A stretch of 38,729 nucleotides of DNA from Shigella phage ESh10. Positions 8,652 through 24,461 of the stretch are shown here, in pieces (the stretch's first letter is position 1; every line of letters begins with the position of its first letter). The translations under genes were made by a program, and so were the position numbers. The stretch lies in sequence record ON528723; one strand, written 5' to 3'. The notes under the pieces are model-generated. The model was not told the DNA's origin. It saw only the letters and a program-made list of their open reading frames with translations, and searched no databases.

Positions 8652-8673
8652 TTAACCCTCACTAACGGGAACA
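8651..8673 (+). promoter_or_regulatory. T3-type phage RNAP promoter
   Basis: attaaccctcactaacgggaaca. Confidence 0.8.
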
Positions 8674-8697
8674 ACCTCAAACCATAGGAGACACATC

Positions 8698-8910: not shown

Positions 8911-8922
8911 GGAGCGCACACT

Positions 8923-9207
8923 ATGAGCAAGTCAATCACTCACGCAAACACAATCCGTCTGCCAGACACCGCTGACCAGTTCTCCCGCCGAGTACACATC
9001 AATGTGCGTGGCGAGAAGGTAACGATGGTCTACCGCTGGAAAGACCACAAGTCTCCGAAAGCACATACTCAACGCATGACCTTGGATGACAAGCAGGTCG
9101 GTCGCCTGATGGGTGCCCTGACTATGGCTGCTGACAAGGTGGTCGGTGATAATCGTGAGCGTCTGGTAGAGTTCGGCGCTGGTATGCAAGAGATTATCGA
9201 GAAGTGA
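8923..9207 (+). CDS. 4.5: gene 4.5 protein
   Basis: 94 aa, AAGGAG SD. Confidence 0.65.
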   Translation: MSKSITHANTIRLPDTADQFSRRVHINVRGEKVTMVYRWKDHKSPKAHTQRMTLDDKQVGRLMGALTMAADKVVGDNRERLVEFGAGMQEIIEK

Positions 9208-9210
9208 TAA

Positions 9211-9245
9211 ACTCAAGGTCGCCCAAGGGTGGCCTTTATGATTAT
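9211..9245 (+). promoter_or_regulatory. RNase III-type processing hairpin
   Basis: actcaaggtcgcccaagggtggcctttatgatt. Confidence 0.6.
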
Positions 9246-9279
9246 CATTTATCCTGAAATGAAATGAAAGGAGGGCATT

Positions 9280-11394
9280 ATGCTCGTAAGTGACATTGAG
9301 GCCAACAACCTCTTAGAGAAAGTCACCAAGTTTCACTGTGGCGTTATCTATGACTACCGTGATGGTGAGTATCATAGTTATCGTCCGGGCGACTTCGGGG
9401 CGTATCTGGATGCGCTGGAAGCCGAGGTGAAGCGAGGTGGGCTTATTGTTTTCCATAACGGTCACAAGTATGACGTTCCGGCTTTAGAGAAACTCGCAAA
9501 GCTGCAACTCAATCGTGACTTCAAGTTACCGCGTGAGAATTGTATTGACACATTGGTACTCTCGCGTTTACTTCATGCGAACCTTAAAGACACAGACATG
9601 GGGCTTCTTCGTTCCGGGAAACTACCCGGTAGTCGCTTCGGGTCTCACGCTCTGGAGGCATGGGGTTATCGCTTGGGCGAGATGAAAGGTGAATACAAGG
9701 ACGACTTCAAGGCTATGCTGGAAGAGCAGGGCGAAGAATATGTTGATGGTGCTGAGTGGGTTTCATTCAACGAGCCGATGATGGCGTATAACGTTCAAGA
9801 CGTTGTGGTCACTGTTAAGCTCTTAGAGAAATTCCTTACAGACCTCCACTACTTCCCTGCTGGTATGGACTTCACGAAATACGATGCGGATTTATTCTGG
9901 CGTGAAGCTGGCGAGTCTGTGGATATTGAACATCGTGCAGCGTGGCTTTTAGCGAAGCAGGAGCGTAACGGCTTCCCGTTCAACACACAGGCCATTGAGG
10001 AACTTTATGTAGAACTGGCAGCGAAACGCGCCGAACTTCTGAGAAAGCTAACCGAAACGTTTGGCTCATGGTATCAACCGAAAGGTGGTAAGGAGCTCTT
10101 CAAGCACCCACGGACAGGCAAGCCGCTGCCGAGTTATCCGCGCGTGGTCTATCCGAAACAGGGTGGCGTGTACAAGAAGCCTCGTAATAAGGCACAGCGC
10201 GAAGGTCTTGAACCTTGCGACTTGGACACTAGGGATTACATGGAGGGTGCTCCGTATACTCCGGTCGAGTTCGTTACGTTCAAGCCAAGTAGCCGTGACC
10301 ACATTCAGAAGAAACTACAGGAGGCCGGATGGGTTCCTGAGAAGTTCACCGAGAAGGGTGCGCCTGTGGTGGATGATGAGGTCTTGGAGCATGTACGAGT
10401 GGATGACCCTGAGAAGCAGGCGTGCATTGACTTGATTAAAGAGTACCTGATGATTCAGAAGCGAATCGGTCAGGCGGCAGAGGGCGACAAGGCGTGGTTA
10501 CGTTATGTTCAAGATGATGGCAAGATTCATGGAGCCGTTAACCCTAACGGTGCAGTTACTGGTCGTGCTACTCATAGTTTCCCAAACCTTGCACAAGTAC
10601 CCGGCGTTCGTTCTCCTTATGGGGAGCAGTGTCGTAGCGCTTTTGGTGCTGAACATCATTTGGATGGGATTACTGGCAAGCCGTGGGTGCAAGCAGGGAT
10701 AGACGCCAGTGGCTTAGAGTTGCGCTGTCTGGCACACTTCATGGCTCGCTTCGACAACGGAGAGTATGCGAATGAGATTCTCAACGGTGACATTCACACC
10801 AAGAACCAGAACGCTGCGGAACTCCCAACGCGCGACAACGCCAAGACCTTCATTTACGGGTTCCTTTACGGAGCAGGAGATGAGAAGATTGGTCAGATTG
10901 TTGGGGCAGGGAAGGAGCGCGGGAAGGAACTCAAGAAGAAATTCTTAGAGAACACCCCGGCGATTGCAGCGCTACGAGAAGCTATCCAACAGTCTCTCGT
11001 TAAGTCTTCCGCTTGGATTGGTGGTGAGCAGAAAGTCCAGTGGAAACGCCGTTGGATTAAGGGTCTGGATGGTCGCAAGGTTCACGTCAGGTCTCCACAC
11101 GCAGCGCTCAACACATTGTTGCAGTCTGCTGGTGCTCTAATTTGTAAGCTGTGGATTATCAAGACCGAAGAGATGCTCATTGAGAAAGGCTTGAAGCATG
11201 GCTGGGATGGTGACTTTGCGTACATGGCTTGGGTTCACGATGAGATTCAGGTGGCCTGCCGTACAGAGCACATCGCTCAGATTGTTATTGACACCGCGCA
11301 GGAAGCTATGCGTTGGGTAGGAGAGCATTGGGCTTTCCGTTGTCGTTTAGATACCGAAGGTAAGATGGGGCCGAATTGGGCTGTCTGCCACTAA
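9280..11394 (+). CDS. 5: DNA polymerase (family A, with thioredoxin-binding insert)
   Basis: 704 aa; near-identical in blocks to T7 DNAP (…HNGHKYDVPAL…, …DASGLELRCLAHF…, …VHDEIQV…). Confidence 0.96.
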   Translation: MLVSDIEANNLLEKVTKFHCGVIYDYRDGEYHSYRPGDFGAYLDALEAEVKRGGLIVFHNGHKYDVPALEKLAKLQLNRDFKLPRENCIDTLVLSRLLHANLKDTDMGLLRSGKLPGSRFGSHALEAWGYRLGEMKGEYKDDFKAMLEEQGEEYVDGAEWVSFNEPMMAYNVQDVVVTVKLLEKFLTDLHYFPAGMDFTKYDADLFWREAGESVDIEHRAAWLLAKQERNGFPFNTQAIEELYVELAAKRAELLRKLTETFGSWYQPKGGKELFKHPRTGKPLPSYPRVVYPKQGGVYKKPRNKAQREGLEPCDLDTRDYMEGAPYTPVEFVTFKPSSRDHIQKKLQEAGWVPEKFTEKGAPVVDDEVLEHVRVDDPEKQACIDLIKEYLMIQKRIGQAAEGDKAWLRYVQDDGKIHGAVNPNGAVTGRATHSFPNLAQVPGVRSPYGEQCRSAFGAEHHLDGITGKPWVQAGIDASGLELRCLAHFMARFDNGEYANEILNGDIHTKNQNAAELPTRDNAKTFIYGFLYGAGDEKIGQIVGAGKERGKELKKKFLENTPAIAALREAIQQSLVKSSAWIGGEQKVQWKRRWIKGLDGRKVHVRSPHAALNTLLQSAGALICKLWIIKTEEMLIEKGLKHGWDGDFAYMAWVHDEIQVACRTEHIAQIVIDTAQEAMRWVGEHWAFRCRLDTEGKMGPNWAVCH

Positions 11395-11410
11395 CAGTAG
11401 GAGAAACATT

Positions 11411-11707
11411 ATGGGTATGAACAAACAACTCAAAGTAACTTTCAACGTGACCGCAACCATGAGTGATGAGCAGGAGGCGGAGTTCGTGCAGACGCTGAAA
11501 GAGATGGCGAAAAACCAGAAGCGTGGGCCTTACTTCGACAACATTCTGGTAGCTGCTATGACTAATGGGCCGGAGGGTGCCTTTGAGCAGGTGTTGAAAC
11601 AGGGTCTTCGTGAGTTCGTCAAGGAAGAACTTGGCAAAGAGTGTGCTCGTTCAGTCGATGAGTTCATCCTCAAGGTTGCCCCGGCGAAAGTGGAGGTTAT
11701 CCGATGA
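11411..11707 (+). CDS. 5.5: gene 5.5 protein (H-NS-binding in T7)
   Basis: 98 aa, AGGAGA SD. Confidence 0.65.
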   Translation: MGMNKQLKVTFNVTATMSDEQEAEFVQTLKEMAKNQKRGPYFDNILVAAMTNGPEGAFEQVLKQGLREFVKEELGKECARSVDEFILKVAPAKVEVIR

Positions 11708-11913
11708 GTGAATACCTGAAAGTTCTGGCAGCTATCAAAGGTTGCCCTAAGTCCTTTCAGTCGAACTATGTGCGAAACAATGCGGCTCTCGTAGCTGAGG
11801 CCGCTTCTCGTGGACACATTAGCTGTTTGACTGTGGGCGGTCGCAATGGTGGAGCATGGGAGGTAACATCCTCTGGTGTGCGCTTCCTGAAACGAATGGG
11901 AGGTTGCGTATGA
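11704..11913 (+). CDS. 5.7: gene 5.7 protein
   Basis: 69 aa; start overlaps 5.5 stop (ATGA). Confidence 0.65.
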   Translation: MSEYLKVLAAIKGCPKSFQSNYVRNNAALVAEAASRGHISCLTVGGRNGGAWEVTSSGVRFLKRMGGCV

Positions 11914-12092
11914 TTATGCCTAAGAGTGACACCGTAACGATGACCCGTGATGCGTGGAACGATGTTAGCGCGTACATTGATAAGCTGGAGAAAGACCTAG
12001 AGTTCCTGAATGAGCTTAAGGCGTGTGGTGTGGATAATTGGGACGGATACTCTGATGCAGTCGAAATGGTTTACGGGGAGGATGACGAATGA
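11910..12092 (+). CDS. 5.9: gene 5.9 protein (RecBCD inhibitor in T7), 60 aa
   Basis: ATG 11910 after GGGAGG; acidic C-terminal half; ORF-track start 11856 rejected (overlaps 5.7). Confidence 0.55.
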   Translation: MIMPKSDTVTMTRDAWNDVSAYIDKLEKDLEFLNELKACGVDNWDGYSDAVEMVYGEDDE

Positions 12093-13000
12093 GCCTAATC
12101 ACATTGAAAGACTTCGCGGAGATGCGTGAAGGTAAGCCTATGGAGAAGGGAGTGCTGGTCATGGATGGTGACTGGTTGGTATATCAGTCAATGGCTGCTG
12201 CCGAAGTTGAGACGGATTGGGGAGACGACATTTGGACTCTTGAGTGTGACCACGCCAAGGCACGGAGCATTCTCGATTCTGCAATCGAATCGTACCGAAC
12301 CCGTAAGAAGGCTTGGAGTGACGCTACGGTTGTTCTGGCGTATACCGACGATGTGAACTGGCGTAAGGTACTGGTTGATGAGACCTATAAGGAGAACCGC
12401 AAGGCGACCCGTAAGCCTGTGGGCTACCGTGACTTCCTGTCGAAGCTGTGGGAGCGCGATGAGTTCATTCACATCAAAGAGGACATGCTGGAAGGTGATG
12501 ACGTTATGGGCATCATTGGGTCTGGTCACGAGGTCTTCGGCTTCAAGAAAGCTGTGTTGGTCTCCTGTGACAAGGACTTCAAGACTATACCGGACGTTGA
12601 CTTCCTGTGGTGTACCACTGGTAACATCTTGACGCAGACCAAAGAGACCGCTGATTGGTGGCATCTATTCCAGACCATCAAGGGTGATATGACTGATGGC
12701 TACTCCGGTATTCCCGGCTGGGGCGATACGGCAGAAGGTTTCCTGAATGACCCGTTCATTGTGGAGCCTGTAGAGTCCGTGTTGAAGTCTGGTAAGAACA
12801 AGGGGCAGACAGTAACCAAGTGGGTTAAGCGTGCTCCTGATGCGACTGAGACGCTGTGGGACTGCATTAAATCCATTGGTGCCAAAGCTGGGATGACCGA
12901 GCAGGAAATCATCAAGCAAGGCCAGATGGCTCGCATTCTTCGATTCGAGGAATACAATTACATTGACAAGGAGATTTACTTATGGACGCCGCGAAGCTGA
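12089..13000 (+). CDS. 6: 5'-3' exonuclease
   Basis: 303 aa; T7 gp6-like. Confidence 0.92.
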
Positions 13001-13095
13001 TTACCATCGCTGTGCTGGTAGGTATGCTGGCGCGAGGTCTCTGGATGTTAGCTCTCATAGTCCGAGACGTGAAGCGAGACTCCGAGATTAAGTGA
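12982..13095 (+). CDS. 6.3: gene 6.3 protein (37 aa, hydrophobic)
   Basis: [37 protein letters not shown]; overlaps end of gene 6. Confidence 0.45.
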
Positions 13096-13097
13096 TA

Positions 13098-13153
13098 AAC
13101 TCAAGGCTCTCTGTATTAACCCTCACTAAAGGGAAGAGGGAGCCTTTATGATT
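13098..13153 (+). promoter_or_regulatory. RNase III-type hairpin with embedded promoter
   Basis: actcaaggctctc…gggagcctttatgatt flanking the promoter. Confidence 0.55.
13115..13137 (+). promoter_or_regulatory. T3-type phage RNAP promoter (class III entry)
   Basis: attaaccctcactaaagggaaga. Confidence 0.8.
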
Positions 13154-13187
13154 ATTACTTTAAGACTTAACCTTAAGAGGTGAAATT

Positions 13188-13433
13188 ATGTTACAACCAA
13201 TTAATCATGTTTTAACTCATCCCGATGATATTCCTAGTATGCCGCGTGCAGCTAAAGAGTATCTACAGGTGCGCTTCAATCAGGCCTATGTGATGGAGTC
13301 AGGGGAGTACCGTGCGCTCCGCGCTGCGGGTTACTCTGAGTCTTTCATTGCTGGTGTGATGCATGGTCTGTACCTTGCCTCTCGAACACTTGATGAGATT
13401 GAGGTGCGTAAAGAGCAACTGAGACAGGAGTAA
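13188..13433 (+). CDS. 6.5: gene 6.5 protein
   Basis: 81 aa; GAGGTG SD. Confidence 0.65.
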   Translation: MLQPINHVLTHPDDIPSMPRAAKEYLQVRFNQAYVMESGEYRALRAAGYSESFIAGVMHGLYLASRTLDEIEVRKEQLRQE

Positions 13434-13437
13434 TTAT

Positions 13438-13689
13438 ATGTGCTGGAAACCGAAGGTGAAAGTCCCTAAGATGGACACTAACCAGATTCGCGCTGCCGAA
13501 CCAGCACCTTTGACTGAACCACCGAAATCTGTGGTATGGGGAGGCGATGACGATGAGGACACCAGCGTGTCTTCCTCTGAGGTGCCAACCTCACCGAGCA
13601 GCGGTAAGAGCAGTCTCAAGGTAAAGCTGGATGACAGCGCAGCCAAGAACAAGAGTAAATCCTCCATTCGCTCAAAGGCGTTTGGGTAA
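13438..13689 (+). CDS. 6.7: gene 6.7 protein (small virion protein)
   Basis: 83 aa; Ser/Asp/Lys-rich low-complexity. Confidence 0.65.
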   Translation: MCWKPKVKVPKMDTNQIRAAEPAPLTEPPKSVVWGGDDDEDTSVSSSEVPTSPSSGKSSLKVKLDDSAAKNKSKSSIRSKAFG

Positions 13690-13716
13690 CTGAGTCATAG
13701 CATAGGGAGAAACATC

Positions 13717-14037
13717 ATGGGATTCTTCAAGAAAATCAAGAAGGCTGTTAAGAAAGTTGTGAAAGAAGTTAGCAGACCAGTCGAGAAGGCCGGTAAGGAA
13801 GTGGGCAAGGTGGTTGGAGGCGCGCTGGGTGCAGGTAAGCAGGAGATTATCCAACAAGAGGCTCCAGCACCAGTAGTAGCTGCACCGCCACCAGCACAGA
13901 TTGTAGACGTACCTGAACAGGATAAGGCTGAGGGCGAGGATGAGGCGCAAACCGAGAGCGCACGTAAGAAGGCACGCGCTGGCGGTAAGAAAGCACTTAG
14001 CGTAGCTCGCAGTTCCGGCGGCGGAATCAATATCTGA
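13717..14037 (+). CDS. 7.3: gene 7.3 protein (tail-associated)
   Basis: 106 aa; Lys/Ala-rich; GGGAGA SD. Confidence 0.65.
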   Translation: MGFFKKIKKAVKKVVKEVSRPVEKAGKEVGKVVGGALGAGKQEIIQQEAPAPVVAAPPPAQIVDVPEQDKAEGEDEAQTESARKKARAGGKKALSVARSSGGGINI

Positions 14038-14047
14038 GGAGGACTGA

Positions 14048-15655
14048 ATGGCTGATTCAAAACGTACAGGATTGGGCGAAGACGGTGCTAAAGCTACCTA
14101 TGACCGCCTGACGAACGACCGTAGAGCCTATGAGACTCGTGCGGAAAACTGTGCGCAATACACCATTCCGTCCTTGTTCCCGAAGGAGTCCGATAACGAA
14201 TCTACCGACTACACGACTCCGTGGCAGGCTGTAGGTGCGCGGGGTCTTAACAATCTGGCCTCTAAATTAATGCTGGCACTATTCCCGATGCAGTCGTGGA
14301 TGAAGCTGACCATTAGTGAATATGAGGCGAAGCAGCTTGTTGGAGACCCTGATGGACTAGCTAAGGTGGACGAAGGTCTGTCTATGGTTGAGCGTATTAT
14401 CATGAATTATATCGAATCCAACAGTTACCGTGTAACACTCTTTGAGTGCCTCAAGCAGTTGATCGTGGCAGGTAATGCACTGCTTTACTTACCGGAACCC
14501 GAAGGTAGCTACAATCCGATGAAGCTGTACCGATTGTCTTCTTATGTTGTCCAAAGAGACGCATACGGCAATGTGTTACAGATTGTCACTCGTGACCAGA
14601 TAGCCTTTGGTGCTCTCCCGGAAGACGTTCGGTCTGCGGTAGAGAAAGCTGGTGGTGAGAAGAAGATGGACGAAATGGTCGATGTGTACACCCATGTGTA
14701 TCTCGATGAAGAGTCCGGCGATTACCTCAAGTACGAGGAAGTAGAGGACGTTGAGATTGATGGCTCCGATGCCACCTATCCGACTGACGCTATGCCCTAC
14801 ATTCCGGTTCGCATGGTTCGCATTGACGGTGAGTCTTACGGTCGCTCCTACTGTGAAGAATACTTAGGTGACTTAAGGTCTCTTGAGAATCTCCAAGAGG
14901 CTATCGTTAAGATGAGCATGATTAGCGCTAAGGTCATCGGTCTGGTTAACCCGGCTGGCATTACGCAGCCCCGCAGATTAACCAAAGCTCAGACTGGTGA
15001 CTTCGTTCCCGGTCGTCGGGAAGACATTGACTTCCTACAACTGGAGAAGCAAGCTGACTTTACCGTAGCGAAAGCTGTGAGTGACCAGATAGAAGCACGC
15101 TTATCGTATGCCTTTATGTTGAACTCTGCGGTGCAACGAACAGGTGAACGTGTGACCGCCGAAGAGATTCGATACGTTGCGTCAGAACTGGAAGATACGC
15201 TTGGTGGTGTCTATTCGATTCTGTCTCAAGAACTGCAATTGCCTCTGGTTCGTGTGCTCTTGAAGCAACTCCAAGCAACCTCGCAGATTCCTGAGCTACC
15301 GAAAGAAGCCGTTGAGCCTACTATCAGTACGGGTCTGGAAGCAATCGGGCGTGGTCAAGACCTCGATAAGCTGGAGCGCTGTATCTCCGCTTGGGCTGCT
15401 CTGGCTCCTATGCAGGGAGACCCGGACATTAACCTTGCGGTCATTAAGCTGCGCATTGCTAACGCCATTGGTATTGATACTTCTGGTATCCTACTGACGG
15501 ACGAGCAGAAGCAAGCACTGATGATGCAGGATGCGGCCCAAACAGGTATCGAGAACGCTGCCGCCACTGGTGGGGCTGGTGTGGGTGCTCTAGCAACCTC
15601 AAGTCCAGAAGCTATGCAGGGTGCAGCAGCACAGGCTGGCCTAGACGCCACCTAA
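14048..15655 (+). CDS. 8: portal (head-tail connector) protein
   Basis: 535 aa; T7 gp8-like. Confidence 0.93.
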   Translation: MADSKRTGLGEDGAKATYDRLTNDRRAYETRAENCAQYTIPSLFPKESDNESTDYTTPWQAVGARGLNNLASKLMLALFPMQSWMKLTISEYEAKQLVGDPDGLAKVDEGLSMVERIIMNYIESNSYRVTLFECLKQLIVAGNALLYLPEPEGSYNPMKLYRLSSYVVQRDAYGNVLQIVTRDQIAFGALPEDVRSAVEKAGGEKKMDEMVDVYTHVYLDEESGDYLKYEEVEDVEIDGSDATYPTDAMPYIPVRMVRIDGESYGRSYCEEYLGDLRSLENLQEAIVKMSMISAKVIGLVNPAGITQPRRLTKAQTGDFVPGRREDIDFLQLEKQADFTVAKAVSDQIEARLSYAFMLNSAVQRTGERVTAEEIRYVASELEDTLGGVYSILSQELQLPLVRVLLKQLQATSQIPELPKEAVEPTISTGLEAIGRGQDLDKLERCISAWAALAPMQGDPDINLAVIKLRIANAIGIDTSGILLTDEQKQALMMQDAAQTGIENAAATGGAGVGALATSSPEAMQGAAAQAGLDAT

Positions 15656-15677
15656 TAACCCTCACTAAAGGGAGACC
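15655..15677 (+). promoter_or_regulatory. T3-type phage RNAP promoter
   Basis: aataaccctcactaaagggagac. Confidence 0.8.
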
Positions 15678-15756
15678 TCATCTTTGAAATGAGCGATGAC
15701 TAAAGGTTGGAGTCCTTTGGTTTCCCTTTATCTTTAACAACTTAGGAGATTTAACA

Positions 15757-16689
15757 ATGGCTGAATCTAATGCAGACGTTTATGCGTCCTTCGGTGTGAA
15801 CAACGCGGTAATGACCGGAAGCACACCTATTGAACACGAACAAAATATGCTGAGTCTCGATGTTGCTGCCCGTGATGGCGATGATGCAATCGTGCTTAGC
15901 GAGGAACCGAGTTCTCATGACGATGACCCTTATGCGGCTGGTGAAGACCCATTCGCCGATGGTGAGGACGATGAGGGCCGCATTCAGGTTCGTATCAGTG
16001 AAGATGGTAACGAAGCCGAGTTCGACACTGGTAGCGATAACGCTGAGGTGGAGACAGAAGGTGAGGCCGCTGAGTTTGAGCCGCTGGGTGACACTCCAGA
16101 AGAACTGAGCCAAGTGACTGAACAATTAGGTCAGCACGAAGAAGGCTTTCAGGCGATGGTCGAGCAGGCCGTTGAGCGTGGACTGAGCGCAGAGTCTGTG
16201 ACTCGCATCTACGAAGAGTACGAAGCCGATGGCATCTCTGAGAAATCCTATGCGGAACTCGAAGCTGCTGGATATAGCCGTGCCTTTGTGGACTCCTACA
16301 TCTCCGGTCAGGAAGCCCTTGTAGACCAGTACGTCAATCAGGTAGTTGCCTTTGCTGGTGGTAAGGAACGCTTTAGCGCAATCCATACGCACCTTGAAGC
16401 AACCAACCCGGCTGCGGCTGAGTCCCTTGAGACTGCCATGATTAACCGAGACTTGGCGACTGTCAAAGCAATTATCAATCTGGCTGGTGAGAGTTACACG
16501 AAGAAATTCGGTAAGCCCGCCAACCGTAGTGTTACCAAGCGTGCTACTCCGGTTAAACCTGTAGCTCGCCAGAAAGAGGGCTTTACGAATCAGGCTGAGA
16601 TGATTAAAGCTATGAGTGACCCGCGTTACCGTAGCGATGCTGCCTACCGTCAAATGGTAGAACAGAAGGTTATCGACTCCAGTTTCTAA
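15757..16689 (+). CDS. 9: capsid assembly (scaffolding) protein
   Basis: 310 aa, highly acidic; slot and composition of T7 gp9. Confidence 0.88.
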   Translation: MAESNADVYASFGVNNAVMTGSTPIEHEQNMLSLDVAARDGDDAIVLSEEPSSHDDDPYAAGEDPFADGEDDEGRIQVRISEDGNEAEFDTGSDNAEVETEGEAAEFEPLGDTPEELSQVTEQLGQHEEGFQAMVEQAVERGLSAESVTRIYEEYEADGISEKSYAELEAAGYSRAFVDSYISGQEALVDQYVNQVVAFAGGKERFSAIHTHLEATNPAAAESLETAMINRDLATVKAIINLAGESYTKKFGKPANRSVTKRATPVKPVARQKEGFTNQAEMIKAMSDPRYRSDAAYRQMVEQKVIDSSF

Positions 16690-16710
16690 TTAACCCTCAC
16701 TAAAGGGATA
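16688..16710 (+). promoter_or_regulatory. T3-type phage RNAP promoter (gene 10 promoter)
   Basis: aattaaccctcactaaagggata. Confidence 0.8.
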
Positions 16711-16845
16711 GACCATAGATGACTACAATGGTTGAATCACCTGAGCACAGAACTTTGTGGTCACTCCCGTAGGTGAAACATTGAGAACCAACTCGATTCA
16801 AGTAGTAACCAAACTTTTCTTTAAATTAACATAAGGAGATTCAAC

Positions 16846-17892
16846 ATGGCTAACATTCAAGGCGGACAGCAAATTGGTACTAATCAGGGTAAGGGTCAGT
16901 CCGCAGCGGACAAATTGGCGCTGTTCCTGAAAGTGTTCGGCGGTGAAGTCCTGACGGCTTTCGCTCGCACCTCCGTGACCATGCCTCGTCACATGCTGCG
17001 CTCTATTGCTTCTGGTAAGTCCGCACAGTTCCCTGTGATTGGTCGCACCAAAGCCGCTTACCTGAAACCGGGTGAGAACCTCGATGACAAACGTAAGGAT
17101 ATCAAACACACCGAGAAGGTAATCCACATTGATGGCCTGCTGACTGCGGACGTTCTGATTTACGACATTGAGGACGCAATGAACCACTACGACGTTCGCG
17201 CTGAGTACACCGCTCAGTTGGGTGAATCTCTGGCGATGGCGGCTGACGGTGCTGTACTGGCTGAACTGGCTGGTCTGGTTAACCTGCCGGACGCATCCAA
17301 TGAGAACATCGAGGGTCTTGGTAAGCCTACCGTACTGACTCTGGTTAAGCCGACCACTGGCGACCTGACTGACCCGGTTGAGCTGGGTAAAGCGATTATC
17401 GCTCAGTTGACTATCGCTCGTGCATCTCTGACCAAGAACTACGTTCCGGCTGCTGACCGCACCTTCTACACCACTCCTGATAACTACTCTGCGATTCTGG
17501 CCGCTCTGATGCCGAACGCTGCAAACTATCAGGCACTGATTGACCCTGAGCGTGGTACTATCCGTAACGTGATGGGCTTCGAAGTGGTTGAGGTTCCGCA
17601 CCTGACCGCTGGTGGCGCTGGTGATACCCGTGAGGATTCCCCGGCTGACCAGAAGCACGCTTTCCCGGCGACTTCCAGCACTACCGTTAAGGTTGCTCTG
17701 GATAACGTTGTGGGCCTGTTCCAGCACCGCTCTGCGGTTGGTACGGTCAAGCTGAAAGACTTGGCTCTGGAGCGCGCTCGTCGTGCGAACTATCAGGCTG
17801 ACCAGATTATCGCTAAGTACGCGATGGGTCACGGTGGCCTGCGTCCAGAAGCTGCTGGCGCTATCGTGCTGCCAAAGACTTCGGGGGCTTAA
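16846..17892 (+). CDS. 10: major capsid protein (10A)
   Basis: 348 aa; MANIQGGQQIGTNQGKGQ… near-identical in blocks to T7 gp10A; AAGGAGA SD with AT-rich enhancer upstream. Confidence 0.96.
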   Translation: MANIQGGQQIGTNQGKGQSAADKLALFLKVFGGEVLTAFARTSVTMPRHMLRSIASGKSAQFPVIGRTKAAYLKPGENLDDKRKDIKHTEKVIHIDGLLTADVLIYDIEDAMNHYDVRAEYTAQLGESLAMAADGAVLAELAGLVNLPDASNENIEGLGKPTVLTLVKPTTGDLTDPVELGKAIIAQLTIARASLTKNYVPAADRTFYTTPDNYSAILAALMPNAANYQALIDPERGTIRNVMGFEVVEVPHLTAGGAGDTREDSPADQKHAFPATSSTTVKVALDNVVGLFQHRSAVGTVKLKDLALERARRANYQADQIIAKYAMGHGGLRPEAAGAIVLPKTSGA

Positions 17893-18026
17893 GGGTAGCG
17901 CCTTTGAGTATGAACGCGGAGAGTGAAGTGGAGCCGACCCAAGAGGTAGCCGCCGAAGTAGCTCTCACGCCTCAACAGAAGGCCGCCATTACTCGTGCTC
18001 GTAACAAGGCACTTAAGTCTCAATAA
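17817..18026 (+). other. -1 frame extension open past the 10A stop (candidate minor capsid protein 10B C-terminus via programmed -1 frameshift)
   Basis: The frame one nucleotide behind 10A is open from 17817 to TAA 18024..18026 and runs through the 10A stop (17890..17892); candidate slip site cca-aag at 17872..17877. Confidence 0.5.
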
Positions 18027-18035
18027 CAACAAGCA

Positions 18036-18078
18036 AACCCCTTGGGTTCCCTCTTTGGGAGTCTGAGGGGTTTTTGCT
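18036..18078 (+). terminator. T-phi-like transcription terminator
   Basis: GC-rich hairpin aaccccttggg…ctgaggggttttt followed by T-run; same position and form as T7 T-phi. Confidence 0.8.
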
Positions 18079-18099
18079 TTAACCCTCACTAACAGGAGG
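18077..18099 (+). promoter_or_regulatory. T3-type phage RNAP promoter
   Basis: ctttaaccctcactaacaggagg. Confidence 0.75.
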
Positions 18100-18106
18100 T
18101 AACATC

Positions 18107-18697
18107 ATGCGCTCTTATGAGATGAATATTGAGACCGCAGAAGAGCTATCAGCCGTCAACGACATTCTGGCTTCCATCGGTGAGCCACCAGTATCGACCC
18201 TTGAGGGTGATGCGAATGCTGACGTTGCGAATGCTCGACGTGTACTCAATAAGATTAACCGACAGATTCAATCACGAGGATGGACATTCAATATTGAGGA
18301 AGGTGTGACTCTTCTACCGGATGCGTTCTCTGGTATGATTCCATTTAGCTCTGACTACCTGTCCGTAATGGCAACCAGCGGTCAGACCCAATATATCAAC
18401 CGTGGTGGTTATCTCTATGACCGCTCTGCGAAGACCGACAGATTCCCTTCTGGTGTTCAGGTCAACCTGATTCGTCTGAGAGAGTTCGATGAGATGCCTG
18501 AGTGCTTCCGTAACTACATCGTTACCAAGGCTTCCCGTCAGTTCAACAACCGATTCTTCGGTGCGCCGGAGGTAGACGGAGTGTTGCAGGAAGAGGAACA
18601 GGAAGCGTGGCGTGCGTGCTTCGAGTACGAGCTAGACTACGGTAACTACAACATGCTGGATGGTGACGCATTCACCGCTGGTCTACTTAACCGCTAA
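18107..18697 (+). CDS. 11: tail tubular protein A
   Basis: 196 aa; T7 gp11-like. Confidence 0.92.
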
Positions 18698-18712
18698 TCA
18701 TAAGGAGGCTCT

Positions 18713-21118
18713 ATGGCTCTCATTAGTCAATCAATCAAGAACCTCAAGGGTGGTATCAGCCAACAGCCAGATATTCTCCGGTTCGCTGAACAAGGTAGCG
18801 TGCAGATTAACGGTTGGTCTTCTGAGTCAGAGGGTCTCCAGAAGCGCCCACCAATGATTCACCTTAAGACCCTTGGCCCTGCTGGGTATGTGGGTGCGCA
18901 ACCTTACGTGCATCTTATCAACCGTGATGAGTTCGAGCAGTATTTTGTTGTGTTCACTGGTGAAGACATTAAGGTATTCGACCTCGACGGTAAGGAGTAC
19001 AAAGTACGTGGAGACCGCTCTTATGTGCGCACAGCTAACCCACGGGAAGACCTTCGGATGGTAACGGTGGCTGACTACACCTTTGTGACCAACCGTAAGG
19101 TGGTTGTACAGAGTAATGACCAAGCGGTCAACCTTCCGGGTTTTAAAGACCAAGGCGATGCATTAATCAACGTTCGTGGTGGGCAGTATGGGCGCAGACT
19201 CTCAATCGAGTTCAACGGGGCTGAGCGTGCTGCTGTGCAACTACCAGATGGTTCACAACCAGCACACGTTAACGAGGTGGACGGTCAGGCTATCGCTGAG
19301 AAGCTGGCGGCGCAGTTGAGGAACAACCTTGGGAATCCAAACAACGAGCAAGACCCGAATAAGTGGCGCTTCAACGTTGGCACCGGATTCATCCATATCC
19401 TTGCGCCAAATAACGATAACGTTTGGGGACTACAGACTAAGGATGGTTACGCAGACCAGCTAATCAACCCTGTAACCCATTACACTCAGTCGTTCCAGAA
19501 GCTGCCTATTAACGCGCCAGATGGGTACATTGTGAAGATTGTAGGCGACACCTCAAAGACTGCCGACCAGTATTACGTTAGGTTCGACCTCAACCGTAAG
19601 GTATGGGTAGAAACAATCGGCTGGAACACAAGGACTAACCTGCACTACCACACGATGCCTTGGGCGCTGGTACGTGCTTCTGACGGGAACTTTGACTTCA
19701 AGTACCTTGAGTGGGGTGCTCGTACTGTGGGCGACGATACAACTAACCCATACCCATCGTTTACCGGACAGACAATCAATGATATTTTCTTCTTCCGTAA
19801 CCGTTTGGGGTTCCTTAGCGGAGAGAACATCATCTTGTCTCGCACCTCGAAATACTTCAACTTCTTCCCGGCCTCCGTGTCAAACTACTCCGACGATGAC
19901 CCAATCGACGTTGCGGTTAGTCACAACCGGGTGTCAACCTTGAAGTATGCCGTTCCGTTCTCCGAAGAGTTGCTCCTGTGGTCTGACCAAGCGCAGTTCG
20001 TGCTGACAGCCTCCGGTATCCTTTCGAGTCGCTCCGTAGAGTTGAACCTTACTACTCAGTTTGATGTGCAAGACAGGGCACGCCCACATGGTGTAGGACG
20101 TAATGTATACTTTGCGTCACCTCGCGCTTCCTTCACATCCATTAACCGATACTATGCGGTACAGGATGTAAGCTCTGTGAAGAACGCAGAGGACATGACG
20201 GCTCACGTTCCGAACTACATACCGAATGGGGTATTTAGTATCTCAGGAACAACTGCTGAGAACTTCGCGGCTATCCTTACGAGCGGGGCACCTAACCGAG
20301 TGTATATCTACAAGTTCCTCTACATTGACGAGGAAATCAGGCAGCAGTCGTGGTCTCATTGGGACTTTGGGGACAACGTTACGGTGTTCGCAGCACAGGT
20401 CATAAACTCAACAATGACAGTGTTGATGAGCAACGAACATGCTGTGTGGATTGGGCGCTTATACTTCACGAAGGACTCCATAGACCTTCCGGGAGAACCT
20501 TACAGGTTGTATATCGACGCTAAGAGGAAGTACACCATCCCTGCTGGGACATACAATGATGATACCTACCAGACGTCCATAAGCCTCTCAACGATTTACG
20601 GGATGAACTTCACGAAGGGTAGGGTTTCGGTGGTCTTTCCTGATGGGAAGATTGTAGAGGTAGACCAGCCAATCAACGGTTGGAGCAGTGACCCGGTGTT
20701 ACGACTTGATGGGAACCAAGAGGGACAAGTAGTCTACATTGGGTTCAACATCCCGTTCACTTATACGTTCTCGAAGTTCCTCATCAAGAAGACTGCTGAG
20801 GACGGCTCGACGGCTACCGAGGATATTGGTCGCTTACAACTTCGGCGTGCATGGGTAAACTATGAGGATTCTGGAGCGTTCACCATCCGTGTGAACAACC
20901 TGTCCAGTGAGTTCATCTACACAATGGCTGGTGCTCGCTTGGGTTCTGACAATCTGCGTGTTGGCAGGTCGAACATTGGCACAGGGCAGTACCGCTTCCC
21001 GGTTGTTGGAAACGCTCAGACGAACATAGTAACTATCGAGTCAGACGCATCAACCCCACTGAACATCATTGGGTGCGGCTGGGAGGGTAACTACCTTCGT
21101 CGTTCTTCGGGCATTTAA
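18713..21118 (+). CDS. 12: tail tubular protein B
   Basis: 801 aa; T7 gp12-like. Confidence 0.93.
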   Translation: MALISQSIKNLKGGISQQPDILRFAEQGSVQINGWSSESEGLQKRPPMIHLKTLGPAGYVGAQPYVHLINRDEFEQYFVVFTGEDIKVFDLDGKEYKVRGDRSYVRTANPREDLRMVTVADYTFVTNRKVVVQSNDQAVNLPGFKDQGDALINVRGGQYGRRLSIEFNGAERAAVQLPDGSQPAHVNEVDGQAIAEKLAAQLRNNLGNPNNEQDPNKWRFNVGTGFIHILAPNNDNVWGLQTKDGYADQLINPVTHYTQSFQKLPINAPDGYIVKIVGDTSKTADQYYVRFDLNRKVWVETIGWNTRTNLHYHTMPWALVRASDGNFDFKYLEWGARTVGDDTTNPYPSFTGQTINDIFFFRNRLGFLSGENIILSRTSKYFNFFPASVSNYSDDDPIDVAVSHNRVSTLKYAVPFSEELLLWSDQAQFVLTASGILSSRSVELNLTTQFDVQDRARPHGVGRNVYFASPRASFTSINRYYAVQDVSSVKNAEDMTAHVPNYIPNGVFSISGTTAENFAAILTSGAPNRVYIYKFLYIDEEIRQQSWSHWDFGDNVTVFAAQVINSTMTVLMSNEHAVWIGRLYFTKDSIDLPGEPYRLYIDAKRKYTIPAGTYNDDTYQTSISLSTIYGMNFTKGRVSVVFPDGKIVEVDQPINGWSSDPVLRLDGNQEGQVVYIGFNIPFTYTFSKFLIKKTAEDGSTATEDIGRLQLRRAWVNYEDSGAFTIRVNNLSSEFIYTMAGARLGSDNLRVGRSNIGTGQYRFPVVGNAQTNIVTIESDASTPLNIIGCGWEGNYLRRSSGI

Positions 21119-21138
21119 CTTAAAGTCTCCCTGTGGTG

Positions 21139-21162
21139 AATTAACCCTCACTAAAGGGAGAC
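21139..21162 (+). promoter_or_regulatory. T3-type phage RNAP promoter
   Basis: aattaaccctcactaaagggagac. Confidence 0.8.
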
Positions 21163-21190
21163 ACTAATAGATACGAGGTGTTAAAGCATT

Positions 21191-21601
21191 ATGTACTTTA
21201 CAAAGTGTTTACAAATCCATGCCGACAACTTTCAGCCGTCCATAGAGGACATTCTGGAAGCTGAGGCACTTGGTGTTGAACCAAAGGTAATTCCTGATGA
21301 GAACACTGTGGCAATGCTTAGCGATAACGCTGTGTTGGCAATTGGTGGCAATCAGGGAGACCGAGTGTGGTTCCTTACCTCTAAGTACGTCCCATTGTTT
21401 ACCTTGAAGGAGCGCTTAGAGTTTCGTAGACTCATCATTGAATATCGTGATATGATGCTGAGCCAGTACGAGTCCATTTGGAATTTCGTTTGGGTAGGCA
21501 GTAAGTCACACATTCGTTTCCTAAAGACCATAGGCGCGGTATTCCATAATGAGTTTACCGCTGATGGTCAATTCCAATTATTCACTATCAGTAGGAGGTA
21601 A
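21191..21601 (+). CDS. 13: internal virion protein A
   Basis: 136 aa; slot and size of T7 gp13. Confidence 0.8.
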   Translation: MYFTKCLQIHADNFQPSIEDILEAEALGVEPKVIPDENTVAMLSDNAVLAIGGNQGDRVWFLTSKYVPLFTLKERLEFRRLIIEYRDMMLSQYESIWNFVWVGSKSHIRFLKTIGAVFHNEFTADGQFQLFTISRR

Positions 21602-21603
21602 CT

Positions 21604-22197
21604 ATGTGCTGGATGGCAGCGATTCCTATTTCCATGATGGGTGCCCAAGCTCTAAGTAGCCAGAACAGTGCTGACAAGGCGCGAGTGGCACAGACCGAAG
21701 CTGGACGCAGACAGGCAATGGAGATGGTCAAAGAGATGAATATCCAAAATGCCAACGCCTCGCTGGAACAACGGGACGCCCTTGAAGCTGCATCCTCTGA
21801 GTTGACTACACGTAACATGCAGAAGGTACAGGCTATGGGAACCATCCGTGCAGCTATCGGCGAGGGCATGCTAGAAGGTGAGTCCATGAAGCGCATCAAG
21901 CGTATCGAAGAGGGCAACTACATTCGGGAGGCAAATAGTGTCACCGAGAATTACCGCCGAGACTACGCGAGTATCTTTGCGCAACAGTTGGGACGCACTC
22001 AGTCCACAGCAAGTCAAGTCGATGCAATGTACAAGAGCGAGGCCAAGGGTAAGTCTGGTCTGATGCGTGTACTAGACCCTCTGTCCATTATGGGTCAGGA
22101 AGCTGCAAGTCAATATGCGGCTGGTGGATTTGACAAGAAAGGTGGAAACCAAGCAGCACCTATCAGTGCCGCCAAAGGAACCAAGACCGGGAGGTAA
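21604..22197 (+). CDS. 14: internal virion (core) protein B
   Basis: 197 aa; T7 gp14-like. Confidence 0.85.
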   Translation: MCWMAAIPISMMGAQALSSQNSADKARVAQTEAGRRQAMEMVKEMNIQNANASLEQRDALEAASSELTTRNMQKVQAMGTIRAAIGEGMLEGESMKRIKRIEEGNYIREANSVTENYRRDYASIFAQQLGRTQSTASQVDAMYKSEAKGKSGLMRVLDPLSIMGQEAASQYAAGGFDKKGGNQAAPISAAKGTKTGR

Positions 22198-22199
22198 TA

Positions 22200-24443
22200 A
22201 TGGCTAGTAAACTAAATAGTGTTTTAGGCAACATGGCGACTCCCGGTATGGAACGACTCCGGGGCGTCAAAGGTATGGACTACCGAGCAGCAACCATTCA
22301 GGCTGAACAACCAAGAGCGAGTCTTCTGGACTCCATTGGTCGATTCGCTAAGGCTGGTGCCGATATGTACATGGCGAAAGATGAACGTGATAAGCAACGA
22401 GCCGATGAGCGCTCCAACGAGATTATCCGTAAGCTGACCCCTGAGCAGCGCCGACAGGCTATCCAGAATGGTACACTGCTGTATCAGGATGACCCATACG
22501 CAATGCAAGCCTTGAAGTTCAAGACCGGGCGTAACGCTGCGTTCCTCGTTGACGATGAGGTTCAACAGGCCATCAAAGAGGGTCGCTTCCGTACTCGTGA
22601 AGAGATGGAGCAGTATCGTCACTCACGCCTACAGGAGCACTCGAAGTCGTTCGCTGAGCAGTTCGGCATCAATGAGATGGACGAGGAATACCAGAAGGGT
22701 TTCAATGCGAATATCACCGAGCGTAACATTGCTCTGTATGGGGCACATGATACCTTCCTGAGTGACCAAGCGCAGAAGGGTGCAATCCTGAACTCGAAGG
22801 TTGAACTCAATGGTGTCCTGTCTGACCCTGACCTACTGTCTCGTCCTGAGTCCGGTGAGTTCTTCCAGAACTACATTGACAACTCCTTGGTGACAGGGAT
22901 GACCGACAATCAGGCTCAACAGGTCATCTCTTCGTCCCTGAATGACGTGCTACAGCGTCCTGGTGGTGCCGCCTTCTTGCAGAACATTGAGAACCGCAAG
23001 GTGACTCTTAATGGCGCTACGACTACCTATCGTGAACTGATGGGCGATGAACAGTGGCAGGCCATGATGATTAAGGCACAGCACACTCAATTCCAGAACA
23101 ACGCGAAGTTAACAGAGAAGTTCCGACTGGATATTAACTCAGCGCTTAACCAAGCGGACACTGGTAAAGGTTGGGAGACTCTTCAAGGCATCAAGGCCGA
23201 ACTAGATAAGATTCAGCCGGGTGAAGAGATGACTCCTGAGCGTGAGTGGCTGATTTCCGCACAGGAACAGATGCGCACACGCTTCAAGCAGGAACAGGCT
23301 GAGACAGCCAAGCTGATGGACAAGCAACAGAAGACCCTGAATAAATCTTTGGTCATCGACAAGCAGTTCCAGAAGCGCCTCAATGGTGAATACGTCTCGA
23401 CCAACTATAAGGACATGCCGACCAACGAGAACACTGGTGAGTTTACACATAGCGATATGGTCAACTACGCGAACCAGAAGTTAGCGGAAATCGAAGCGAT
23501 GGACTTAACACCTGAACAGAAAGACAAACTGAAATTGGACTACCTACGGGCAGACTCCAAGGAGGGTGCTTTCCGTGCAGCGTTTGGTGAGATGATTACT
23601 GACGCGGGTAACGAATGGCAGGCTGCGGTGATTAACGGTAAGATGCCTGAGAGCACGCCAGCGATGGACAACCTTCGTCGCATCCGCAACACTGACCCTG
23701 ACCTGATTGCCTCTCTGTATCCTGACAAGGCCGAGTTGTTCCTGACGATGGACATGTTGGATAACCAAGGTATCGACACGCAGGTTCTTATCGACGCTGA
23801 TAAGGCCCGCGCACAGAAGACCAAGGAGATGCAGTTTGAGGATGACCGAGCGTGGGCTGCTATGATGAATGATTCAACGAATCCTCAAATCAAGTACATG
23901 CCTTCGAGTGTCCAAGGGTATGCCCGGAAGATTTATGATTCCGTGAAGTACCGGACAGGGAACCCTGACATGGCAACTGAACAGGTCGCAAAGTTCCTCT
24001 CTGATTCAACGACTACGTTCTCCAGTAGTGATGTTGAGGGTGATACCTATGGTGTCCTGCCGAAGAACATCCTGACTGTTTCGGACGACCCTAAGTCGTG
24101 GGAGCAAGGAAAGAACATTCTGGACGAAGCCATTAAGGGAATCACAGAGGCGAACCCTTGGATTACCAACAAGCAACTTACGGTGTACCAGCAAGGTGAT
24201 TCAATATACCTGATGGACACAACCGGACAGGTTCGCATTCGGTATGACCAAGAGTTGCTCCAGCGTGAGTACCAGCGTACCGCACAGATGCAAGCTGAGG
24301 CAGCACGAGAGAAAGCCCTCAAAGAGGCCAACAAGCGTGCCCCAATCAGCCGTGTATCACAGGCGCGTGAAGAAGCGCGTAAACGTGTCCAAGAGAAACG
24401 GAAGAAGACTCCGAAGTACATCTATGGACGTAAAGAAGACTAA
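22200..24443 (+). CDS. 15: internal virion (core) protein C
   Basis: 747 aa; T7 gp15-like. Confidence 0.9.
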   Translation: MASKLNSVLGNMATPGMERLRGVKGMDYRAATIQAEQPRASLLDSIGRFAKAGADMYMAKDERDKQRADERSNEIIRKLTPEQRRQAIQNGTLLYQDDPYAMQALKFKTGRNAAFLVDDEVQQAIKEGRFRTREEMEQYRHSRLQEHSKSFAEQFGINEMDEEYQKGFNANITERNIALYGAHDTFLSDQAQKGAILNSKVELNGVLSDPDLLSRPESGEFFQNYIDNSLVTGMTDNQAQQVISSSLNDVLQRPGGAAFLQNIENRKVTLNGATTTYRELMGDEQWQAMMIKAQHTQFQNNAKLTEKFRLDINSALNQADTGKGWETLQGIKAELDKIQPGEEMTPEREWLISAQEQMRTRFKQEQAETAKLMDKQQKTLNKSLVIDKQFQKRLNGEYVSTNYKDMPTNENTGEFTHSDMVNYANQKLAEIEAMDLTPEQKDKLKLDYLRADSKEGAFRAAFGEMITDAGNEWQAAVINGKMPESTPAMDNLRRIRNTDPDLIASLYPDKAELFLTMDMLDNQGIDTQVLIDADKARAQKTKEMQFEDDRAWAAMMNDSTNPQIKYMPSSVQGYARKIYDSVKYRTGNPDMATEQVAKFLSDSTTTFSSSDVEGDTYGVLPKNILTVSDDPKSWEQGKNILDEAIKGITEANPWITNKQLTVYQQGDSIYLMDTTGQVRIRYDQELLQREYQRTAQMQAEAAREKALKEANKRAPISRVSQAREEARKRVQEKRKKTPKYIYGRKED

Positions 24444-24461
24444 CAGTGATAAGGAGGCTCC

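What the first reader, a model, noticed from the sequence alone, without database searches (positions are those of the whole stretch)
17817..18026. Candidate programmed -1 frameshift producing a C-terminally extended capsid protein (10B)
The major capsid ORF stops at 17890..17892, but the -1 frame is open from 17817 through the stop to TAA at 18024..18026. That would add roughly 45 residues (…LRVAPLSMNAESEVEPTQEVAAEVALTPQQKAAITRARNKALKSQ) and ends just before the T-phi terminator. T7 makes minor capsid protein 10B this way. A plausible slip site is the A-AAG lysine codon at 17872..17877.
Basis: partly seen in the sequence, partly recalled or inferred. Interest (0 to 1): 0.55.

Follow-up and report, generated by a model that had tools for sequence, protein, structure and literature searches.

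The report
Capsid gene 10B frameshift tail
This T3-like phage very probably makes a longer minor capsid protein (10B) by a -1 ribosomal slip near the end of its major capsid gene; this is a well-known T7-group feature, already annotated at the same slip site and with an identical tail peptide in phage phiSG-JL2.

Summary
Gene 10A is 16846..17892, and the -1 frame is open from 17817 to TAA 18024..18026, eight bases before the T-phi terminator. That open frame alone is not beyond chance (shuffle P about 0.12).

Comparison makes the case:
- The tail is homologous to the T7 10B tail, not to the Ig-like T3 tail.
- Its conserved motif LTPxQKAAxTRAxNKAxK varies mainly at third codon positions of the -1 frame (pN/pS 0.18 across 36 distinct relatives).
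- 75 of 80 related loci pair a -1 extension of at least 36 codons with an in-frame A_AAG or U_UUC near the 10A stop; three lack both.
- 14 of 36 distinct tails have no possible start codon before the motif, so the peptide must be reached from 10A.

The slip site is G_CCA_AAG (17871..17877). It keeps the shifty A_AAG but is an imperfect form of T3's C_CCA_AAG. All nine sequenced genomes with the window's slip site and tail type (the window class) keep it, whereas the alternative G_GGG is not conserved.

Predicted 10B has 393 aa, with junction ...AIVLPK|DFGGLRV.... I found no conserved RNA stimulator.

GenBank EU547803 (phiSG-JL2) already annotates this join. Most other close relatives annotate the tail as a separate 38-40 aa ORF, which I judge to be wrong. 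This is ordinary and already known; there is no experimental proof for this variant.

The parts
16846..17892 (+). Gene 10A, major capsid protein, 348 aa, about 36.9 kDa
   Evidence: ORF. Pfam PF21703 Gp10A-like, E 2e-111. The queried stretch 16846..18100 (gene 10 plus its downstream region) is 99.4% identical to phiCFP-1 and 98.8% to phiSG-JL2. Mass.
17817..18026 (+). Open window of the -1 frame, 69 sense codons plus TAA; it overlaps the last 73 nt of 10A before the stop
17871..17877 (+). Proposed slip site G_CCA_AAG. The A_AAG tetramer is 17874..17877. The P-site codon CCA would re-pair poorly with GCC.
   Evidence: Sequence. Kept in all 9 window-class genomes and in one metagenome contig. 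T3 and phiYeO3-12 have C_CCA_AAG at the same place, annotated there as the slippage site. A_AAG is the best tetramer in E. coli (PMC4066793).
17877..18026 (+). 10B-specific coding in the -1 frame, 49 codons plus TAA: DFGGLRVAPLSMNAESEVEPTQEVAAEVALTPQQKAAITRARNKALKSQ. Predicted 10B has 393 aa, about 41.8 kDa.
   Evidence: The length matches the phiSG-JL2 gp10B join, which spans 1181 nt.
17964..18017 (+). Conserved basic C-terminal motif LTPQQKAAITRARNKALK of the T7-type 10B tail
   Evidence: Shared by the T7, Berlin, K30, K5, Lilpapawes and SM9-3Y lineages. Entropy by codon position 0.29, 0.29, 1.20 and pN/pS 0.18. Invariant across the 9 window-class genomes.
17883..17886 (+). Alternative in-frame tetramer G_GGG, unlikely to be the main site
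   Evidence: The codon at 17884..17886 is GGG, AAG or GAG among the 9 window-class genomes. G_GGG did not behave as a frameshift motif in E. coli reporters (PMC4066793).
18035..18073 (+). T-phi terminator hairpin, with its CCCC at 18038..18041. It starts about 157 nt 3' of the slip site and is a possible distal stimulator by analogy with T7.
   Evidence: Annotated as T-phi in phiSG-JL2. The role of CCCC in T7 frameshifting is stated in PMC5009743.

Best explanation
A minority of ribosomes translating gene 10A slip back one base at CCA_AAG (17872..17877). Lysyl-tRNA(UUU) re-pairs from AAG to AAA, and reading resumes at GAC (17877..17879). The -1 frame is then read to TAA 18024..18026.

The product is a 393-aa minor capsid protein, 10B. 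It consists of 10A residues 1-344, a 29-residue acidic linker and a 20-residue basic C-terminal segment (LTPQQKAAITRARNKALKSQ).

**Shown here:** the ORF geometry, homology of the tail to the T7 10B tail, purifying selection on the tail in the -1 frame, co-occurrence of tail and slip motif across the subfamily, and conservation of A_AAG.

**Inferred:** that slippage happens at this imperfect heptamer, how efficient it is, and what stimulates it. By analogy with T7 the stimulator may be a distal element that includes T-phi.

**Not known:** the function of the tail. T7 is viable with 10A only (my own knowledge).
For: **Geometry.** The -1 ORF overlaps the 3' end of 10A and ends 8 nt before T-phi.

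**Homology.** The tail aligns with the T7 10B tail. It also aligns with 35 other distinct tails, from phages including Teseptimavirus, Berlinvirus, Przondovirus, Minipunavirus and Teetrevirus members. T7 10B is made by a -1 shift in about 10% of translations (PMC1635266).

**Coding signature.** Variation in the motif is concentrated at the third codon position of the -1 frame (entropy 0.29, 0.29, 1.20). Pooled pN/pS is 0.18 in the motif. Window against K30 gives 16 synonymous and 12 nonsynonymous differences, pN/pS 0.24.

**Co-occurrence.** In 80 IMG/VR loci, 75 have both a -1 extension of at least 36 codons and an in-frame A_AAG or U_UUC within 21 nt of the 10A stop, and 3 lack both. Fisher P is 2e-4, not corrected for relatedness.

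**No independent start.** 14 of 36 distinct tails have no ATG, GTG or TTG before the motif.

**Slip motif.** G_CCA_AAG is kept in all 9 window-class genomes. A_AAG and U_UUC are the two best tetramers in E. coli (PMC4066793). Imperfect first positions also occur in the U_UUC lineages (AGTTTTC 3 loci, CGTTTTC 3 loci).

**Profile and annotation.** PHROG 267 (major head protein) aligns with residues 1-386 of the fused 10B. phiSG-JL2 annotates the same join.
Against: - The heptamer is imperfect. After the shift, prolyl-tRNA would face GCC.
- Tetramers alone gave about 0.15% shifting in reporters, and 5.6% only with a strong pseudoknot (PMC4066793).
- I found no conserved local hairpin or pseudoknot. 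The fold z-scores are -1.7 and -2.1. The candidate long-range pairings are not conserved. The AP5 authors also found no pseudoknot (PMC4283147).
- Within the window class there are only 9 variable sites in the tail, and 8 of those columns change the amino acid. Selection cannot therefore be shown inside the clade.
- No proteomic or reporter data for this variant were found.
Confidence: 0.82

Rival explanations
1. The tail is a separate small gene of 38-40 aa, started at ATG 17910 or TTG 17904 and not fused to the capsid protein. Five close relatives are annotated this way.
For: - phiCFP-1, K19PH14C4P1, VAC1, LL2 and AP5 annotate a separate CDS.
- PHROG 20538 is a 38-position profile built from such calls.
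- An AAGG lies 9 nt upstream of TTG 17904.
Against: - ATG 17910 has no Shine-Dalgarno core at a usable spacing, and it is GTG in AP5.
- 14 of 36 distinct homologous tails have no start codon at all before the conserved motif.
- The tail is in the -1 frame relative to 10A and overlaps its 3' end in every T7-type lineage examined, despite indels.
- The homologous T7 tail is known to be made as a fusion (PMC1635266, PMC5009743).
Confidence: 0.06
2. The -1 ORF is an inherited or recombined remnant. With the heptamer degraded to G_CCA_AAG, frameshifting is at background level and no meaningful amount of 10B is made.
For: - The heptamer is imperfect and no stimulator was found.
- An open -1 frame of this length is not rare by chance.
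- Changes within the clade are mostly nonsynonymous.
- 10B is dispensable in T7 (my own knowledge).
- Some relatives have lost both the motif and the tail, and one (L033) has a truncated tail.
Against: - The ORF is intact and the motif is invariant in all 9 window-class genomes and in one metagenome contig.
- A_AAG is retained in all three Teetrevirus tail variants: T3, the window class and the SM9-3Y class.
- Relatives that really lack the tail also lack the slip motif.
- The tail shows purifying selection against Przondovirus homologues.
Confidence: 0.1
3. The shift occurs at G_GGG (17883..17886), giving the junction ...LPKTSG|GLRV, rather than at A_AAG.
For: A run of five G at 17883..17887 allows glycyl-tRNA to re-pair perfectly from GGG to GGG.
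Against: - The codon is AAG or GAG in 6 of the 9 window-class genomes, which still keep the tail.
- In E. coli reporters the signal from G_GGG was attributed to internal initiation, not to frameshifting (PMC4066793).
Confidence: 0.03
4. RNA polymerase slippage, rather than ribosomal slippage, produces a -1 shifted mRNA.
For: None specific. Short A3 and G5 runs lie in the overlap.
Against: The homopolymer runs are far shorter than those known to give transcriptional slippage (my own knowledge). The conserved element is an in-frame tetramer, which fits tRNA re-pairing.
Confidence: 0.01

Closest known systems
Salmonella phage phiSG-JL2 gp10B (GenBank EU547803, ACD75701; RefSeq NC_010807)
   Same: The slip region and the 45-codon tail peptide are identical, and the whole queried stretch (16846..18100) is 98.8% identical. 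The record annotates 10B as a two-piece join of the same length, 393 aa.
   Different: Nothing that matters for this feature. The record calls it a putative protein, and I found no experimental support.
Phage T7 gene 10A/10B -1 frameshift (G_GUU_UUC, about 10%)
   Same: The gene, the -1 direction and the position within a few codons of the 10A stop are the same. The tail is homologous, with the same LTPxQxAAxTRAxNKAxK motif, and ends just before a very similar T-phi (PMC1635266; PMC5009743).
   Different: The slip motif here is of the A_AAG type, not U_UUC. The linker differs, and the tail extends 45 codons past the 10A stop rather than 53.
Phage T3 / phiYeO3-12 10B (C_CCA_AAG)
   Same: They belong to the same genus, the 10A C-terminal region up to the slip site is nearly identical (GAIVLPK), and the slip site is at the homologous CCA_AAG codons.
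   Different: Their heptamer is perfect, C_CCA_AAG, while this one starts with G. Their tail is an unrelated 86-residue Big_2 Ig-like domain. T-phi lies about 160 nt beyond the end of their tail.
Przondovirus 10B tails (Klebsiella phages cp32, cmc355D, K30, K5)
   Same: These are the closest relatives of the tail itself. Window 17921..17975 reads identically to cp32 in the alignment. The tail peptide is 71-89% identical to these phages.
   Different: They use G_GTT_TTC or A_GTT_TTC and have a different terminator. The window looks like a T3-type capsid gene and terminator with a Przondovirus-type tail recombined in just after the slip site.

Membership tests
T7-group gene 10 programmed -1 frameshift (10A/10B) | The second ORF is in the -1 frame and overlaps the 3' end of the major capsid gene | tested here: met
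   The -1 frame is open at 17817..18026 and the 10A stop is at 17890..17892.
T7-group gene 10 programmed -1 frameshift (10A/10B) | The upstream ORF is a gp10A-type capsid protein | tested here: met
   Pfam PF21703, E 2e-111. The queried stretch 16846..18100 is 98.8-99.4% identical to annotated gene 10 regions.
T7-group gene 10 programmed -1 frameshift (10A/10B) | An in-frame shift-prone motif (X_XXZ_ZZN or Z_ZZN) lies in the overlap | tested here: met
   A_AAG is in frame at 17874..17877. The full heptamer G_CCA_AAG is imperfect at its first base.
T7-group gene 10 programmed -1 frameshift (10A/10B) | The tail is homologous to a 10B tail shown experimentally to be a frameshift fusion (T7) | tested here: met
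   BLASTP gives 52% identity over 33 aa, E 3e-6. Alignment of 36 distinct tails. PHROG 267 covers residues 1-386 of the fusion.
T7-group gene 10 programmed -1 frameshift (10A/10B) | The tail evolves as protein-coding sequence in the -1 frame | tested here: met
   Codon-position entropy 0.29, 0.29, 1.20. pN/pS is 0.18 in the motif and 0.24 for the window against K30. This cannot be resolved inside the window class alone.
T7-group gene 10 programmed -1 frameshift (10A/10B) | A stimulatory element (3' structure, upstream Shine-Dalgarno-like sequence, or the distal T-phi element reported for T7) | tested here: inconclusive
   T-phi with its CCCC is present 157 nt downstream. There is no conserved local structure. 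A 13-bp pairing of 17883..17895 with the T-phi 5' arm exists here but is lost in AP5, LL2 and 536_P3.
T7-group gene 10 programmed -1 frameshift (10A/10B) | The fusion protein is actually made and incorporated into capsids | not testable with these tools
   This needs proteomics or a reporter assay. I found no such data for this variant.
T3-type 10B (Ig-like decoration by frameshift) | A perfect C_CCA_AAG heptamer | tested here: not met
   The window has G at 17871. T3, phiYeO3-12 and 6 IMG/VR loci have C.
T3-type 10B (Ig-like decoration by frameshift) | A Big_2 Ig-like C-terminal domain | tested here: not met
   The T3 tail hits Big_2 at E 4e-10. The window tail has no Pfam hit and does not align with the T3 tail.
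Stand-alone small 'head protein' ORF (PHROG 20538) | Its own conserved start codon and ribosome-binding site | tested here: not met
   ATG 17910 has no Shine-Dalgarno core at a usable spacing and is GTG in AP5. 14 of 36 distinct homologous tails have no start codon before the motif.

The most novel reading that the evidence does not exclude
The window class may be a natural first-position mutant of the most efficient bacterial heptamer, C_CCA_AAG changed to G_CCA_AAG, that still makes a useful amount of 10B. If so, shifting rests on the A-site lysyl-tRNA alone, plus an unidentified non-canonical stimulator.

One candidate stimulator is pairing of 17883..17895, which starts 5 nt after the slip site, with the 5' arm of T-phi (18039..18051). 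The predicted energy is -22.6 kcal/mol, reached by 0.4% of shuffles. This echoes the unexplained need for the T-phi CCCC in T7 frameshifting.

A related reading is that the slip site acts as a recombination joint at which capsid tails are swapped between phage genera.
Probability: 0.12. Interest if true: 0.4.

Novelty: already known. Interest (0 to 1): 0.15.

Why it matters
Mostly this is an annotation matter. Five of the six annotated genomes of the window class that I examined call the tail a separate 38-40 aa 'minor capsid' or hypothetical gene instead of a frameshift fusion. One paper describes a sister class (phage SH1) as lacking 10B.

Getting this right affects virion protein lists and phage-display designs that use the 10B C-terminus.

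There is a smaller point for frameshifting biology. The subfamily tolerates imperfect heptamers (G_CCA_AAG, T_GCA_AAG, A_ or C_GUU_UUC). It keeps only the two tetramers that are best in E. coli, and the stimulator is still unexplained.

Tried and rejected
- **Local RNA stimulator.** MFE folds of 17878..17960 and 17860..18082 gave z-scores of -1.7 and -2.1. The stem ACUUCGG/CCGAAGU is not kept in LL2, nor in cp32, which shares the 3' arm.
- **RNAalifold on the window, K30 and K5 lineages.** This gave a long-range stem between two CTTAAG palindromes, but L079 and L085 break it with no compensating change.
- **Duplex test across 18 lineages.** I paired the 36 nt after the slip site with the end of the tail or with the T-phi 5' arm. 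Own-lineage pairs averaged -18.5 kcal/mol and cross-lineage pairs -17.2 (sd 4.6), so there is no general signal.
- **Window-specific pairing with T-phi.** The 13-bp pairing is not conserved within the class.
- **Rfam.** Only a chance miRNA-model hit on the terminator.
- **Pfam on the tail.** No hit.
- **Pattern searches for more members of the class.** One IMG/VR contig and one metagenome contig were found; both add no variation.
- **Primary T7 papers.** Condron 1991 (two papers) and Sipley 1991 are not held in the library, so statements about T7 rest on PMC5009743 and PMC1635266.
- **G_GGG as slip site.** Rejected because it is not conserved.

Full report
**What the window is.** The window is a T3-like phage of the genus Teetrevirus. 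Its first 25 kb are 96.7% identical to Yersinia phage vB_YenP_AP5. The stretch 16846..18100, which covers gene 10 and its downstream region, is 99.4% identical to Citrobacter phage phiCFP-1 and 98.8% identical to Salmonella phage phiSG-JL2.

**Checking the observation.**
- Gene 10A runs from ATG 16846 to TAA 17890..17892 and encodes 348 aa. It matches Pfam PF21703.
- The T-phi hairpin is at 18035..18073.
- Codons CCA AAG occupy 17872..17877.

On this window alone it is not statistically remarkable. 12% of shuffles keep 45 codons open, and 6 of 28 long ORFs in the window have a -1 extension at least that long.

**What the tail is.** A tblastn search with the tail found 246 phage records. Reading the loci showed two things.

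First, T3 and phiYeO3-12 have C_CCA_AAG at the homologous codons. phiYeO3-12 annotates that position as the slippage site. Their tail, however, is an unrelated 86-residue Big_2 Ig-like domain. The review PMC5009743 also notes that the T3 tail is Ig-like and the T7 tail is not.

Second, the window's tail belongs to the T7 type. It shares the motif LTPxQKAAxTRAxNKAxK with T7 10B (52% identity over 33 aa). The same motif is present in the tails of Berlin, FE44, K30, K5, Lilpapawes and SM9-3Y. The tail has an acidic linker (6 acidic and 1 basic residue) followed by a basic end (5 basic residues).

**Is the tail translated?** I aligned 36 distinct T7-type tails as codons in the -1 frame.
- In the 18-codon motif, entropy by codon position is 0.29, 0.29 and 1.20, and pooled pN/pS is 0.18.
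- The window against K30 gives 16 synonymous and 12 nonsynonymous differences, pN/pS 0.24.

This is the signature of a translated peptide. Inside the window class there are too few changes to judge: 9 variable sites, all outside the motif, and 8 of those columns change the amino acid.

**How the tail is reached.** Three results point to a shift from 10A rather than a separate start.
- In 80 IMG/VR relatives, 75 combine a -1 extension of at least 36 codons with an in-frame A_AAG or U_UUC within 21 nt of the 10A stop. Three have neither. In L091, which lacks the motif, the long -1 frame past the 10A stop translates to a gene 11-like (gp11) sequence rather than a 10B tail. L033 has the motif and a nonsense-truncated tail. 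Fisher P is 2e-4, without correction for relatedness.
- 14 of 36 distinct tails contain no ATG, GTG or TTG between the 10A stop and the motif.
- The T7 homologue is made by a -1 shift in about 10% of translations (PMC1635266).

The separate 38-40 aa CDS annotated in phiCFP-1, K19PH14C4P1, VAC1, LL2 and AP5 is therefore most likely an annotation artefact. The same applies to PHROG 20538. The phiSG-JL2 record annotates the join, and PHROG 267 aligns with residues 1-386 of the fused protein.

**Where the slip occurs.** The overlap contains three in-frame tetramers: G_GGU, A_AAG and G_GGG.
- All nine window-class genomes keep G_CCA_AAG.
- The codon at 17884..17886 is GGG, AAG or GAG, so G_GGG is not conserved. 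In reporters, G_GGG was judged not to frameshift (PMC4066793).
- A_AAG also marks the other Teetrevirus variants: C_CCA_AAG in T3, and T_GCA_AAG directly before TAA in SM9-3Y.

In E. coli, A_AAG is the best tetramer and U_UUC the second. C_CCA_AAG is the best heptamer, at 54% with the IS3 pseudoknot. A_AAG gives 5.6% with that pseudoknot, and tetramers give about 0.15% without it (PMC4066793). The window's site should therefore be weaker than T3's and should need a stimulator. Imperfect first positions are not unique to it: AGTTTTC and CGTTTTC each occur in 3 loci.

With the shift at A_AAG, 10B has 393 aa and a mass of 41.8 kDa, with the junction ...AIVLPK|DFGGLRV.

**Stimulator.** None was established.
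- Local folds are unremarkable.
- A consensus long-range stem between two CTTAAG palindromes lacks covariation.
- A duplex test across lineages shows no general signal.
- In the window, 17883..17895 can pair over 13 bp with the 5' arm of T-phi (-22.6 kcal/mol, reached by 0.4% of shuffles). AP5, LL2 and 536_P3 lose this pairing without compensation.
- The T7 precedent is itself unexplained. [quoted passage not shown] The window has the same kind of terminator 157 nt downstream.
- The AP5 authors found no pseudoknot either (PMC4283147).

**Mosaic origin.** The 10A body, the CCA_AAG codons and the terminator are of the Teetrevirus type. Positions 17921..17975 read identically to Przondovirus cp32 in the alignment. 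The tail peptide is 71-89% identical to the tails of the Klebsiella phages K5, K30, cmc355D and cp32. The tail cassette seems to have been exchanged between genera, with a junction just after the slip site.

**Verdict.** Three qualifications apply: the tail is T7-type and not T3-type, the heptamer is imperfect, and the feature is already annotated in phiSG-JL2. It is ordinary for this phage group and remains experimentally unproven for this variant.

Noticed in passing
window 17883..17895 and 18039..18051: GGGGGCUUAAGGG, starting 5 nt after the slip site, can pair over 13 bp (5 of them G.U) with the 5' arm of the T-phi terminator. Predicted energy is -22.6 kcal/mol, reached by 0.4% of shuffles. 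The pairing is lost without compensation in AP5, LL2 and 536_P3.
   Followed up: partly
window 17888..17893 and 18011..18016: Two CTTAAG palindromes, one at the 10A stop and one near the end of the tail, form a long-range consensus stem in the window, K30 and K5 lineages. L079 and L085 break it, and there is no covariation.
   Followed up: partly
L092, L093, L095, L096, L003 (phiCFP-1, K19PH14C4P1, VAC1, LL2, AP5); equivalent to window 17904/17910..18026: These close relatives annotate the tail as a separate 38-40 aa 'minor capsid', 'head' or hypothetical protein rather than as a frameshift join. PHROG 20538 appears to be built from such calls.
   Followed up: yes
L010 (Serratia phage SM9-3Y) 293..469; also Citrobacter phage SH1 (hit H92): A sister Teetrevirus class has T_GCA_AAG directly before TAA and a 36-codon T7-type -1 tail that is not annotated. 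PMC4925675 states that SH1 lacks 10B.
   Followed up: partly
L019, L046, L062, L091, L033: Four relatives lack the slip motif. Three of them have no tail; in L091 the long -1 frame translates to a gene 11-like sequence. L033 keeps the slip motifs but its tail is cut to 16 codons by a stop.
   Followed up: partly
L008, L009, L023, L035 (Berlin-type): Two shift-prone motifs lie in tandem, G_GTT_TTC_AAA_AAG, just before the 10A stop.
   Followed up: no
L024, L026, L053 and about 35 other IMG/VR loci: A third tail family of 91-93 aa (VNTFSAR...GETLVTV) sits behind G_GTT_TTC in relatives whose tail resembles neither the T7 nor the T3 type. It has no Pfam hit.
   Followed up: no
window 16798..17832, minus strand: A 344-aa antisense ORF lies opposite gene 10. 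K19PH14C4P1 annotates a similar one as hypothetical. It is probably a shadow ORF and not a gene.
   Followed up: no
window 18077..18099: A T3-type phage promoter (phi11), CTTTAACCCTCACTAACAGGAGG, follows directly after T-phi and overlaps the gene 11 ribosome-binding site. phiSG-JL2 annotates it the same way.
   Followed up: partly
window 1..25000: Window position 1 corresponds to AP5 position 4169, so the sequence seems rotated relative to the usual start of T7-like genomes.
   Followed up: no
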